NCBI GenBank assembly: GCA_001724265.1
Contig: MEDY01000124.1
Location: 1 to 64,000, forward strand
From: Rhizaria sp. SCN 62-66
Taxonomy: Eukaryota
Direction of reading: 5' to 3'
DNA length: 64,000 nucleotides
Numbering within the stretch: position 1 is the stretch's first letter; every line of letters starts with the position of its first letter. The notes beneath the pieces were generated by a model. It worked only from the letters and a program-made list of their open reading frames with translations, did not search any database and was not told where the DNA came from. Below are positions 29,841-32,315 of this stretch, in pieces. The position numbers and the translations under genes are program-made.

Positions 29841-32315
29841 TCAATTAACACAACCCTAATCACGACTGGGCTTAGATAAAGTCCGCATCAGAGCGGTGTC
29901 CCACCCGGCATCCTCCCACCACCATCCAGCTTCACTGTTGCAATCAGTCAAACATTTTTTTGTTATGTCACGTTCACCAGAAATCGAGTGCTTTGGGCCA
30001 TCGCAATCGCATTCACCACACTCATGATCCTCCTTCTTTAGCTCACGATCACCATGCGCGGTGTGGTCTCGCTTTTCACTGAACACGGCTTCGGTCTCAG
30101 TGCCAGTGAGCAAGCCGTAGCGGGCCCACAGCCGCTGCGCGCGCCGCTGCGCGCGCCGCTGCTGCCTGCGCGGTCGCTGCTGCGCCTGAGCCGCGGCCAG
30201 CAGTTGCACATCTGGCTGAGGCTGAGACTGAGCCTGATGCGAGGACTGAGACGGCGACCGTGCAAAGGAATACGATGTCGCAGATTGTTCTGAGTGCAAA
30301 AATGGCTGCGGTCGACGACGCTGCTGCAAATGTTCATCATCATCATCATCATCATCATCATCATCATCATCATCATCATCATCATCATCATCATCATCAT
30401 CATCATCATCGTCATCGTCGTCGTCGTCGTCGTCGTCGTGGTCGATGGTTCGCTCGCCGTGACCAGAGCTTGCTTGCAAGCCCCGCTTCTGCGGTGTCCG
30501 CTCACAGTTCCGTGTCGATGTTTGCACGTCCCCCTGCTGCTGCTCCTGCTGTAGCTGCGTGAGCGGCCGCTCATGCTGCGATTGTGCGCACAGCAGCTCC
30601 CTCGGCGGCAGCGGGAAGCGCGTGCATGTGTCGTCTTGCGGCCGGTCGCGCCAGATATTCACGAGCACCGTCACGCGGCCGCCGCACACGCGCCCGCAGT
30701 CAAAGCAACGGGACTTAAGCATCAAGCCCGTGCTCGGGGAACTACTGCCTCGTTGCGACTCAGCATACATGGCGTCACAAGGTTGCGTTTCAGTGTTATC
30801 GACCACTGTCTGCTGTGTGCAGAGATTAGTGAGTTTGTGCACCGGGGCGCTCACCTCGTCCGAGGGGGGTGCGACGCCGTGGAGCCTGTCGCCTGCGAAG
30901 GCGAGCCAGCGACCCTGACGCGGCCACACTGTGGCGACCGCGGCTGAGATACGCACCGAACCATCGGCAAACGAACCGTCGCAAAAACTGGCAGGGCCGG
31001 CGCTTGCAGCTGCGTTCACGTTTGCATCTGCACTGAGAGTGCGCGCATTAGTGTCAGTCTAAACAGCGGTGCCGATGTCAGCGCCAGGAGAAGTGTCGAT
31101 GCGAGCTTGGGCATCCGTGTGAGCGTGAATATCAGTGCGAGAGAGGAGGGCTGGTCCCGTAGCCCACGCCCAGCCTGGAGGCATCAGAGCATCGTCCGCA
31201 TCATCATCGACACCACTGCCGCTTCGGTCCTTGCTGGTCGTTTTATCACTGTCACCATCACTAACCCTCACATTCGCACTCGTACAGGCATCTCTCGCAC
31301 TTGCATTCACATCAGCTTGATTGTCATGTGGCAGTGAGTGTTGTTGCACAGGCACGGTCACAAGTCCTTCGTCAAGCACAATAGTCGGGCCGCCGCCTGT
31401 CCTGACGCGCTTTTCGTCGGGGTTCACATTGTTACTATCATCAGTGGAGGTCGCGGCGGTATTAATCGTGTTAATGGTTTTGGCATTGCGATCATTGCAG
31501 CTGTTGCCGTCGACGTCGCACGGCTTGCTCGCAGTGTCGCCGGTGAGGTACAGCACGCTTGCCCACGTAGGGTGGCTCAGCGCCGTGTACGGGCCAACAC
31601 GCCTGGCCTAAGCACCCGCATTTGCACCTTTACTCACGCCCGTGTAAGGGTAAATGTGAGTATGCGTGTGGGTGTAGGTGCCACCGTGTTCCCAGAGTCC
31701 CTCGTCTTTGTCTAAGTGTAGTTCCATGCCCCCCTTAAACGCACACTGAGTGCGGACCCACCACTCCGCGCCGGGGCACGCTGTCGCACTGGCGCGGTCA
31801 TGCGCAGTGTGGTCGCCTTCAGAGTGATCGTGTGAAGTGGAGGCGTCGGTGTGCGACAACCTTGCGGCAGTCGCAGAAGTTGTTGGGGCGGCAACCGGCA
31901 GAGCGAACGGTCGCTGCAGCAGCGGCGGCTACGACTGCCGCTGAGCTTGATCCTACGCATACAACGCAGCTTCACGAGCTGCAGTAGCTGTTCGCGTTTG
32001 TGTTCTTTGAGCTGCTGACGTTGTTGAGCAATCATCGTTGGCAGAGGTAAGCAGGGGCGGGAGCGAGCGCTTTAGTAGCGCCGCCACGACAGCCTCGACA
32101 CCGCAGCGCGGCGCCGCAGTCACCAGTGTCCCGCTACCAGCGCTATCTGCGTATAACGGAAGGTAGAACGATCGATGCGCGCGGTTCGGCCTGTGCACAC
32201 AGCTCTGCAGACGAGCCAGTTCCGACGCTGAAATAGCCGAGTCTGTGACATGGATACAGCGCGACCAGGGGATGCTGTCTTTAAGTAGCACGGGAGCTGC
32301 GCCCGCGGGCTACAT
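29841..32315 (-). CDS. 2-oxoglutarate/Fe(II) dioxygenase-like (prolyl-hydroxylase-like) protein, ~824 aa, with six in-frame TAG codons (32310, 31953, 31929, 31608, 31059, 29856)
   Basis: ORFs 31953..32291, 31608..31859, 31059..31556 and 29856..31019 share one frame and are separated only by TAG. Joined, they give ordered motifs GAEWW..HLDKDE (HxD)..HPTWASVLYLT..GGPTIVLD..VWPRQGRWLAFAGDRLHGV (distal His)..RVTVLVNIW. The first non-TAG stop is TGA 29841-29843. The 5' end is uncertain because the frame stays open upstream to a possible acceptor at ~32379. Confidence 0.75.
30336..30437 (-). repeat. Coding microsatellite (GAC)n(GAT)n encoding 34 consecutive Asp
   Basis: (TCA)n then (TCG)n on the + strand, in frame with the oxygenase-like gene. 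Confidence 0.92.

What the first reader, a model, noticed from the sequence alone, without database searches (positions are those of the whole stretch)
29841..32315. A single 2OG-Fe(II) oxygenase fold is split by TAG codons: best internal proof of UAG decoding
The HxD motif (HLDKDE), the core strands (HPTWASVLYLT, GGPTIVLD) and the distal His/Arg strands (RLHGV, RVTVLVNIW) fall in three different standard-code ORFs. These are separated only by TAG 31608 and 31059, and all catalytic motifs are intact and in order. The candidate start reads GCC ATG TAG CCC, so standard decoding would give a one-codon ORF. Six TAGs in series make leaky readthrough implausible as a way to produce full-length protein (inference).
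Basis: partly seen in the sequence, partly recalled or inferred. Interest (0 to 1): 0.8.

Follow-up and report, generated by a model that had tools for sequence, protein, structure and literature searches.

The report
Protist reads rare UAG as sense
This single-celled eukaryote uses the stop codon UAG, very sparingly, as an amino-acid codon while UAA and UGA still end its genes, and its only matching tRNA looks like a glutamate tRNA, which would make it an undescribed version of the genetic code, although the amino acid is not yet proven.

Summary
In detail: 32315-29841(-) is one 824-codon frame with six TAGs, no TAA/TGA and a TGA end. A stop-free database homolog (P0003) matches it from the ATG to residue ~737, across four inner TAGs. 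It is not the best proof of recoding: all six TAGs sit in unconserved inserts, and the 2OG-Fe(II) fold rests on motifs only (no Pfam, NCBIfam or PDB hit; models pLDDT 37). Stronger evidence lies elsewhere in this 34.9 Mb eukaryotic genome. In about 1 Mb sampled, TAG has coding sequence on both sides 12 times (TAA 0, TGA 1 false), including eRF1, kinases and Ubc6. Gene ends use TAA 38, TGA 26, TAG 2. eRF1 carries T32S, G57S and T58K. One tRNA with a CUA anticodon was found; it resembles the genome's tRNA-Glu (47/73), not tRNA-Gln (33/73). TAG is very rare (about 28 in 161,000 codons). Sense use is about 93% likely. The residue is open: Glu about 55%, Gln 20%, mixed 15%. UAG=Glu with UAA and UGA as stops was not found in my literature searches. 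No transcript or protein evidence was obtained.

The parts
29841..32315 (-). Single 824-codon gene, ATG to TGA, six in-frame TAG; putative Fe(II)/2OG-type oxygenase with long low-complexity inserts; weak codon bias (GC3 0.60)
32310..32312 (-). TAG at codon 2, directly after the ATG; homolog P0003 begins at the same offset before KDSIPWS
32262..32282 (-). N-terminal conserved block KDSIPWS (aa 12-18), shared with P0003
31953..31955 (-). TAG codon 121, in an insert absent from P0003
31929..31931 (-). TAG codon 129, in the same insert (Gln-rich context)
31701..31766 (-). EWWVR and HLDKDE blocks; H200-x-D202, candidate first two iron ligands
   Evidence: ligand role inferred from the recalled HxD...H motif
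31608..31610 (-). TAG codon 236, in a variable loop; also the end of a possible 30-nt GT..AG intron, judged unlikely
31542..31574 (-). HPTWASVLYLT block, conserved in P0003
31371..31394 (-). GGPTIVLD block, conserved in P0003
31059..31061 (-). TAG codon 419, in an insert absent from P0003; database gene calls P0002, P0006, P0007 stop here
30873..30929 (-). VWPRQGRWLAFAGDRLHGV block with H479, candidate third iron ligand; conserved in P0003 and P0005
30651..30677 (-). RVTVLVNIW block with R547, candidate 2OG-binding Arg; conserved in P0003 and P0005
30336..30437 (-). Run of 34 Asp codons (GAC/GAT repeat), absent from both homologs
30108..30131 (-). C-terminal conserved block LWARYGLL (aa 729-736), shared with P0003 and P0005
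29856..29858 (-). TAG codon 820, five codons before the TGA, beyond the last conserved block
32316..32605 (.). AT-rich (38% GC) 290-bp spacer to the divergent aspartyl-tRNA synthetase gene; little room for an upstream exon
35930..39853 (-). Neighbouring low-complexity gene with five in-frame TAG (GC3 0.71); its TAG at 37735-37733 reads GAG in all four laid runs

Best explanation
[quoted passage not shown] SHOWN from DNA: TAG stands in frame inside conserved domains, is almost absent from gene ends, and the genome holds one tRNA gene with anticodon CUA and an eRF1 altered at stop-reading residues. INFERRED mechanism: a tRNA-Glu gene gained the CUA anticodon (one base from CUC) and is still charged with glutamate; eRF1 T32S (with G57S and T58K) weakens its hold on the third-base G of UAG; so UAG is read mostly as Glu. 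One tRNA gene makes decoding slow or a little leaky, so TAG is purged from strongly biased genes and drifts in only at tolerant positions of weakly biased genes such as this one (6 TAGs, GC3 0.60). Most TAGs arose by single changes from several codons (many from CAG), which is why their surroundings look neither purely Gln nor purely Glu. The protein is probably an Fe(II)/2OG-type oxygenase of an unnamed eukaryotic family (about 70%, motifs only). Sense use of UAG alone: about 0.93; with Glu as main residue: 0.55.
For: Sense use: TAG with coding sequence in frame on both sides 12 times, TAA 0, TGA 1 (a false upstream case), in 927,964 nt of genome loci plus the window; coding followed by non-coding after TAA 38, TGA 26, TAG 2, one of the two being read through in DDX46. 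11 of 142 kinase matches hold a TAG; on inspection 6 are exonic, 5 intronic or splice acceptors. eRF1 itself has an exonic TAG at human position 107 and aligns to human eRF1 straight across it. eRF1 T32S is shared by 0 of 119 homologs with a residue there, G57S by 0 of 120, T58K by 1 of 120, the closest relative P0008. T32 contacts the G of UAG and is changed in Iotanema (PMC5304391, section 9). tRNA-CUA: 1 of 3 pattern matches is a tRNA, 58 bits in Rfam, no intron, oligo-T behind it, on a 171-kb contig that also carries a kinase gene. Glu body: 47 of 73 identical to own tRNA-Glu(CUC), next 40 (His), 33 to Gln(CUG), 29 to Gln(UUG), among 36 distinct tRNA sequences compared; of the 17 longest matches in the phage collection 9 are annotated tRNA-Glu, 8 carry no annotation (E 0.2-0.8, weak). 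No Gln-type CUA copy: BLAST with tRNA-Gln(CUG) gave 5 matches, all exact CUG copies. Glu-leaning columns: eRF1 107 is E 108, D 11, V 1, Q 0 of 120; Ubc6 site D, D, S, S, E in the five alignments shown; two kinase sites have E 4 and 5, Q 0, of 24 paralog rows; TAG 37735 reads GAG in 4 of 4 runs. Rarity: 2 TAG in 56,438 codons of genes with GC3 >= 0.9, 25 in 90,710 at 0.7-0.9; no exonic TAG among 40,075 codons of long ORFs in ten dynein heavy chain regions with 1,708 CAG and 2,287 GAG.
Against: No TAG was found at an invariant Glu. Gln-leaning sites: NEK1 has Q at the aligned site (one structure), a ubiquitin-derived domain has TAG where the genome's own ubiquitin has Q, DDX46/DDX5/Dbp2 show H, Q, E. 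In-frame TAG occurs in 5 of 47 examined Gln/His-flanked pattern sites, and the single all-acidic site among the first 100 of 338 listed matches is out of frame. On 48 exonic sites the context model rejects 'all like GAG' (lnL -14 to -21) harder than 'all like CAG' (-3 to -7), and the likelihood ratio between my Glu and Gln mixtures is +2.0 or -0.5 depending on the features: undecided. The TAG/GAG polymorphism lies in a gene where 6 of 9 other listed variants change the amino acid. The closest eRF1 relative has V at 107, so that site is relaxed in this lineage. The genome's tRNA-Asp and tRNA-Glu(UUC) were not sampled (63 of 506 tRNA candidates scored), and the CUA tRNA has G73 where own tRNA-Glu(CUC) has A73. 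No transcript covers the gene: the poly(A) run has depth 0 to 0.9 over it.
Confidence: 0.55

Rival explanations
1. UAG = Gln (NCBI table 15 type, as in Iotanema, Hartmannula, Trochilia). Either the Glu-bodied CUA tRNA is charged by glutaminyl-tRNA synthetase, or an unseen Gln-type CUA tRNA exists.
For: TAG inside poly-Gln and Ser-Gln runs; Q in NEK1 and in own ubiquitin at aligned sites; base before TAG is G in 18 of 34 sites, as for CAG (0.60) and unlike GAG (0.26); pure-CAG context fits better than pure-GAG; Gln is the commonest meaning in eukaryotes (PMC11687900, passages).
Against: The only CUA tRNA found is Glu-like. Only 3 of 34 sites have two or more Q within three residues, against 25% for CAG and 36% for CAA. 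eRF1 column has no Q in 120 homologs. C-to-T changes from CAG would put TAG in Gln contexts whatever it encodes (inference).
Confidence: 0.2
2. Ambiguous decoding, a code change in progress: UAG gives mostly Glu from the CUA tRNA, some Gln from near-cognate tRNA-Gln(CUG), and some residual termination by eRF1. TAG is then mildly harmful wherever it stands.
For: Extreme rarity of TAG, far below CAA (799) and GAA (932) in 174,655 codons; context best fitted by a mixture close to mutational supply; restriction to tolerant sites; one tRNA gene against five tRNA-Gln(CUG) copies; tRNA-Gln is known to read through stops (PMC13192750, abstract in search listing).
Against: Six TAGs in series in this gene and one in the only eRF1 gene found require high read-through per codon; TAG is nearly gone from gene ends. 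No direct evidence for two residues.
Confidence: 0.15
3. UAG is sense but encodes another residue (for example Asp, if the tRNA descends from tRNA-Asp, or Tyr, Ser, Lys).
For: tRNA-Asp was not sampled and the CUA tRNA has U1-A72, C2-G71, G73; Asp appears in the Ubc6 and kinase columns; the fitted mixture gives weight to TAC-like contexts.
Against: Asp needs two anticodon changes; annotated outside matches are tRNA-Glu; no TAG at an aromatic or hydrophobic conserved column.
Confidence: 0.04
4. Standard code: this gene is a pseudogene, or its TAGs are removed as intron ends or by editing.
For: Every TAG ends in AG; TAG 31610 closes a 30-nt GTGAGT..TAG stretch in frame; TAG density in the gene is far above the genome mean (6 against 0.14-0.32 expected); no RNA cover.
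Against: No TAA, TGA or frameshift in 824 codons; the one indel listed inside the gene in a 99% identical strain is 6 nt, in frame; the three eRF1 introns measured are 134-292 nt, 37-52% GC and end in CAG, whereas the gene stays at 48-71% GC and codons 2 and 820 have no in-frame donor; TAG inside eRF1, Ubc6, kinases and helicases cannot be spliced out without breaking the domains.
Confidence: 0.06

Closest known systems
Oligohymenophorea sp. PL0344 (PMC10553269; passages read)
   Same: UAG read as Glu, with CUA tRNAs most similar to tRNA-Glu (69-93% there, 64% here).
   Different: There UAA is Lys and only UGA stops, with 10 CUA tRNA genes and 10,160 aligned UAG codons; here UAA and UGA both stop, one CUA tRNA gene was found and TAG is very rare.
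Iotanema spirale (UAG=Gln) and rhizarian exLh (UAG=Leu) (PMC5304391; sections 8 and 9 and passages read)
   Same: UAG alone reassigned, UAA and UGA kept as stops; eRF1 changed at T32 in Iotanema (T32G; here T32S).
   Different: Residue; those studies had no genome and no tRNA; UAG is about 8% of Gln codons in Iotanema, here about 0.4% of Gln or Glu codons; here also G57S and T58K, and L69 is unchanged.
Phyllopharyngean ciliates, UAG=Leu or Gln, tables 15 and 16 (PMC11687900; passages read); it also cites Scotinosphaera UAG=Ser
   Same: UAG alone sense; cognate CUA tRNA derived from the tRNA of the encoded residue where found.
   Different: 78-91% of genes there hold a UAG; here most genes hold none. 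This genome is GC-rich (65% in the window) and not ciliate-like.
Blastocrithidia (PMC12153298; passages read) and peritrich ciliates (table 30, as cited in PMC11687900)
   Same: UAG=Glu; in Blastocrithidia by tRNA-Glu-derived tRNAs, with reassigned codons avoided in highly expressed genes.
   Different: UAA is also Glu; Blastocrithidia is explained by AT pressure and has UAG at 1.4-1.7% of codons, about a hundred times more than here.
Fe(II)/2-oxoglutarate dioxygenases, 2OG-FeII_Oxy_3 (PF13640)
   Same: HxD...H and a distal Arg in the expected order (motif recalled, no call); Atlas feature hits for homolog P0003 point to PF13640 clusters and to unnamed diatom and green algal clusters.
   Different: No profile hit; 824 aa with long inserts; fold not modelled.

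Membership tests
Nuclear codes with UAG alone reassigned | In-frame UAG inside conserved coding sequence | tested here: met
   eRF1, 6 kinase matches, Ubc6, DDX46, ASCC3-like helicase, ubiquitin-like domain; 12 TAG vs 0 TAA vs 1 false TGA
Nuclear codes with UAG alone reassigned | UAA and UGA remain stops, UAG is not used as a stop | tested here: met
   TAA 38, TGA 26, TAG 2 at coding-to-noncoding edges, one of the two read through; about 3% of the genome sampled
Nuclear codes with UAG alone reassigned | tRNA gene with CUA anticodon | tested here: met
   L073 1489-1561(-), ARAGORN and Rfam; expression and charging not testable
Nuclear codes with UAG alone reassigned | eRF1 changed in stop-reading motifs | tested here: met
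   T32S, G57S, T58K against 120 homologs; effect on UAG inferred, not measured
Table 15 (UAG=Gln) | UAG at conserved Gln columns | tested here: inconclusive
   Q at 2 sites, E/D-leaning at 4, uninformative at the rest
Table 15 (UAG=Gln) | CUA tRNA derived from tRNA-Gln | tested here: not met
   33 of 73 to Gln(CUG), 29 to Gln(UUG), 47 to Glu(CUC); no Gln-type CUA copy (intron-bearing copies would be missed)
UAG=Glu codes (PL0344, table 30, table 31) | CUA tRNA derived from tRNA-Glu | tested here: met
   own tRNA-Asp and Glu(UUC) not available for comparison
UAG=Glu codes (PL0344, table 30, table 31) | UAG at conserved Glu columns | tested here: inconclusive
   eRF1 E107 (108 of 120) is the one strong column; context test undecided
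UAG=Glu codes (PL0344, table 30, table 31) | UAA also reassigned | tested here: not met
   UAA is the commonest stop, 0 in-frame cases; so not a member of these tables
Any reassigned code | Residue shown in protein; UAG kept in mature mRNA | not testable with these tools
   No proteome; poly(A) run X2 has depth 0-0.9 over the gene
Fe(II)/2OG dioxygenases | HxD/E...H triad and distal Arg in order | tested here: met
   H200, D202, H479, R547; HxD kept in P0003, H479 and R547 in P0003 and P0005; motif definition recalled
Fe(II)/2OG dioxygenases | Profile match to a 2OG family | tested here: not met
   No such hit in Pfam, NCBIfam or PDB sequences; Atlas leads for P0003 at 0.92 and 0.87, recognition 2242 below the 2300 guide
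Fe(II)/2OG dioxygenases | Double-stranded beta-helix fold | tested here: inconclusive
   Both models failed, mean pLDDT 36.9 and 36.5 on three-sequence alignments; no fold search run

The most novel reading that the evidence does not exclude
A GC-rich, non-ciliate protist has captured UAG alone for glutamate through a single tRNA-Glu-derived CUA tRNA and a T32S/G57S/T58K eRF1, keeping UAA and UGA as stops: a nuclear code variant not found in my searches, caught at an early stage (about 1.7 TAG per 10,000 codons, strains still differing TAG/GAG), with a UAG at codon E107 of eRF1 that could act as a feedback brake on release factor supply.
Probability: 0.5. Interest if true: 0.85.

Novelty: new variant of a known kind. 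Interest (0 to 1): 0.72.

Why it matters
UAA and UAG nearly always change meaning together; the cases where UAG changes alone are few (Leu, Gln, Ser in the papers read). A whole genome with the tRNA and eRF1 in hand, in a GC-rich lineage where AT pressure cannot be the driver, would add an independent case whichever residue is right, and a new table if it is Glu. Because TAG is so rare here, the genome looks like an early stage of codon capture, which makes the order of events (loss from gene ends, eRF1 change, tRNA gain, spread into genes) testable: the nearest relative found has T58K but not T32S or G57S. The eRF1 changes are a natural design for a UAA/UGA-only release factor and can be tested in yeast. 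Practical point: codes with so few reassigned codons are easily missed, and databases already hold this gene as fragments (P0002, P0004, P0006, P0007).

Tried and rejected
Pfam, NCBIfam and PDB-sequence searches of the read-through protein and its homologs gave no 2OG family. Two structure predictions failed, so no fold search was run. Searches for shorter homologs found nothing new (the second covered only 30-84 aa); genome and viral collections held no relative; three metagenome loci (L168-L170) matched only 22 residues and were left out. Dynein heavy chains were fetched to get many aligned TAG columns and held no exonic TAG in the long ORFs. The poly-Q/poly-E pattern test was discounted because mutation from CAG predicts the same skew under either residue. 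Two context models were undecided; their site lists were curated by eye (6 of 39 sites dropped as false frames, UTR-like or codon 2; 15 added). CaMK, ASCC3/Brr2 and PTEN-C2 sites gave no residue signal. Laying reads did not test splicing: all runs are contigs, the only one bridging four TAGs (X4, 31194-33029) is of unknown kind, and only 40 of 231 differences were shown. Exact patterns from the CUA tRNA found nothing in prokaryote or viral collections. The lineage could not be placed: no named close eRF1 relative, no polyubiquitin junction assembled. Feedback through the TAG in eRF1 is only a possibility: at the rate for genes of similar GC3 a 430-codon gene holds a TAG about 9% of the time. 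Earlier scan notes held nothing on this genome or gene; the word search returned only phages and giant viruses, not used. Ciliate, trypanosomatid and fornicate identities were set aside by inference: high GC, genes on both strands with cis introns, mitochondrial genes.
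Full report
Observation. The minus-strand frame 32315-29841 has 824 codons and a TGA. It holds six TAGs (codons 2, 121, 129, 236, 419, 820) and no TAA or TGA. Codon-position shuffles never gave a frame free of TAA and TGA (0 of 5000). A metagenome contig, L167, is identical over 2550 nt and runs from 8 nt before the ATG to 67 nt after the stop; its nature (DNA or RNA) is not known to me.

One gene. A search of 1.84 billion representatives with residues 1-563 gave 4 hits: two fragments of this gene called under the standard code, and two homologs, P0003 (511 aa) and P0005 (156 aa, partial). 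P0003 has no stop and shares every block in order, from KDSIPWS to LWARYGLL, and its Met lies at the same offset as the ATG of ATG-TAG. So the parts on both sides of TAG 121, 129, 236 and 419 belong to one protein. But each TAG lies in an insert or variable loop, none at a conserved column. The gene therefore shows read-through and says nothing about the residue. In run X4, a 99% identical contig bridges four TAGs with one in-frame 6-nt insertion and no large gap; X4 is of unknown kind, and the poly(A) run barely touches the gene, so splicing was not tested. The intron reading is weak on other grounds: the three eRF1 introns measured are 134-292 nt and AT-richer, the gene's GC stays level, and codons 2 and 820 have no in-frame donor, though TAG 31610 does close a 30-nt GT..AG stretch.

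The 2OG label. H200-x-D202, H479 and R547 are in the order expected for an Fe(II)/2OG dioxygenase (motif recalled) and are kept in the homologs. No profile confirms it: none in Pfam, NCBIfam or PDB sequences. Both structure models failed (pLDDT 36.9, 36.5). Atlas feature searches with P0003 gave unnamed diatom and green algal clusters at 0.93, a PF13640 cluster at 0.92, and PF13640 clusters at 0.87 when limited to named ones; these are leads. It works like a 2OG oxygenase with perhaps 70% odds; membership is not shown.

The organism. The window is contig C124 of a 34.9 Mb, 714-contig eukaryotic assembly. Genes lie on both strands, have GT-AG introns, and include Nop14, a mitochondrial carrier and an aspartyl-tRNA synthetase. 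Eleven dynein heavy chain loci suggest a flagellum (inference). The 18S gene is very divergent with four group I introns. Near-identical pieces occur in wastewater and activated sludge runs of two studies. I could not place the lineage.

UAG is sense genome-wide. In 927,964 nt of fetched loci plus the window, a strict test found coding sequence in frame on both sides of TAG 12 times, of TAA 0 times and of TGA once (false). Coding followed by non-coding sequence came after TAA 38, TGA 26 and TAG 2 times; one of the two TAGs is read through in DDX46, the other is in an ORF with no family. A looser test gave 45 TAG, 6 TAA, 6 TGA. Of 142 kinase matches 11 hold a TAG, 6 of them exonic. eRF1 has a TAG at the codon for human E107 and aligns across it. 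Against 120 homologs it carries T32S (0 share it), G57S (0) and T58K (1, the 84% identical relative P0008, which keeps T32 and G57); E55, NIKS, L69, S70, Y125, C127 and F131 are standard. T32 bonds the third-base G of UAG and is changed in Iotanema (PMC5304391, section 9); T32A in human eRF1 lowers UAA and UAG release in vitro (PMC3384315, passages) and is lethal in yeast (PMC4381064, passages). That T32S spares UAA and loses UAG is my inference.

The tRNA. A pattern for a CUA anticodon arm before a T loop gave 3 matches (16 for the reversed control); one is a tRNA by ARAGORN and Rfam (58 bits), single copy, with an oligo-T run behind it. It shares the first five acceptor pairs and the whole T stem with the genome's tRNA-Glu(CUC): 47 of 73 identical, against 33 for Gln(CUG) and 29 for Gln(UUG). 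Its annotated long matches among phage records are tRNA-Glu (9 of the 17 longest, 8 unannotated; weak E-values). No Gln-type CUA copy turned up. Limits: tRNA-Asp and Glu(UUC) were not sampled, intron-bearing tRNAs would escape the pattern, and position 73 is G, not A as in own Glu(CUC). In PL0344, Blastocrithidia and the TARA ciliates the suppressor's body matches the residue (PMC10553269, PMC12153298, PMC11687900; passages), which is my main ground for Glu.

Which residue. Protein evidence is split. For Glu: eRF1 107 (E 108, D 11, V 1, Q 0 of 120), Ubc6 (D, S, E), two kinase columns without Q in 24 rows, and TAG/GAG at 37735 in 4 of 4 runs. For Gln: NEK1, the ubiquitin-like domain, TAG in poly-Gln (5 in frame of 47 examined; the one all-acidic site in the first 100 of 338 matches is out of frame), and the base before TAG. 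Neutral: CaMK (Y, K), Brr2 (M, K), DDX46 family (H, Q, E). On 48 curated sites neither pure model fits; a mixture near mutational supply fits best, and Glu against Gln is +2.0 or -0.5 in log likelihood (mixture weights are my assumptions). The polymorphic gene is loosely constrained (6 of 9 other variants non-synonymous, from 13 of the 40 listed differences that I translated). My odds: Glu 0.55, Gln 0.20, mixed 0.15, other 0.04, not sense 0.06.

Rarity. TAG makes up 28 of 161,372 inner codons of predicted cores, some of them intronic false cases; 2 of 56,438 in genes with GC3 of 0.9 or more, against CAA 799 and GAA 932 in 174,655. Long ORFs of ten dynein regions (40,075 codons) hold five TAGs, all at intron edges or in introns. 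This gene, with GC3 0.60, has six, and its neighbour at 35930-39853 five, while Nop14, REI1, AspRS and the RsgA-domain gene have none. Avoidance in strongly biased genes parallels Blastocrithidia (PMC12153298, abstract and passages) and fits a costly codon served by one tRNA gene (inference).

Novelty. The papers read list UAG-only changes to Leu, Gln and Ser, UAR to Glu, and UAG to Glu with UAA to Lys. Searches for UAG-only Glu or for a cercozoan case returned none; the library lacks most subscription papers, and I read no supplements. So: a new variant of a known kind. It is an independent UAG-only reassignment if Gln, and an undescribed table if Glu. Papers seen only in listings (PMC13192750 abstract start) are cited as such. 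PMC13746701 was searched by terms and held nothing on nuclear codes.

Verdict. Observation confirmed; interpretation partly supported; interest 0.72.

Noticed in passing
L072 1501-5945 (G000:C706): Very divergent, AT-rich 18S rRNA gene with four group I introns; the first holds a His-Me homing endonuclease ORF (L072 2089-2634, PF05551, E 5e-14).
   Followed up: partly
L039 (G000:C63), eRF1 codon for human E107: The release factor gene itself carries an in-frame TAG; possible feedback on eRF1 level, but about 9% likely by chance.
   Followed up: partly
P0008: eRF1 of an unnamed relative (84% identical) shares T58K and M34V but keeps T32 and G57: a possible stepping stone whose stop usage is unknown.
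   Followed up: no
L171-L182: Unusually divergent ubiquitins (start MS-MQIF, Q at position 28, tail GG-HPQ) as tandem single-unit genes; several contigs end inside ubiquitin, so any polyubiquitin is unassembled.
   Followed up: partly
L173 976-2085 (G000:C681): Ubiquitin domain fused to a Peptidase_S74 chaperone domain on a 48% GC contig, with a TAG in the ubiquitin part; looks like a mobile or viral element.
   Followed up: no
window 35930-39853 (-): 1,307-codon low-complexity gene with five TAG, no Pfam family, and many amino-acid differences between strains.
   Followed up: partly
window 54074-63865 (+): A 3,263-codon ORF whose only family hit is an RsgA GTPase domain, embedded in very long Ala-rich extensions.
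   Followed up: no
window 30336-30437 (-): Run of 34 Asp codons in the finding's gene, absent from both homologs.
   Followed up: no
L216 365-1210 (G000:C12): TAG-bearing ORF whose C-terminal part resembles a DDE transposase by eye (recalled motif); no Pfam hit.
   Followed up: no
window 11299-17214 (+), 40289-46468 (+), 6279-10245 (-): Long ORFs broken by AT-rich stretches that look like introns; the TAG at 13813 lies at such an edge and is probably intronic.
   Followed up: no
L046 and neighbours (G000:C108): tRNA-Tyr gene with a short intron, so intron-bearing tRNAs exist here and a second CUA tRNA could have been missed.
   Followed up: no
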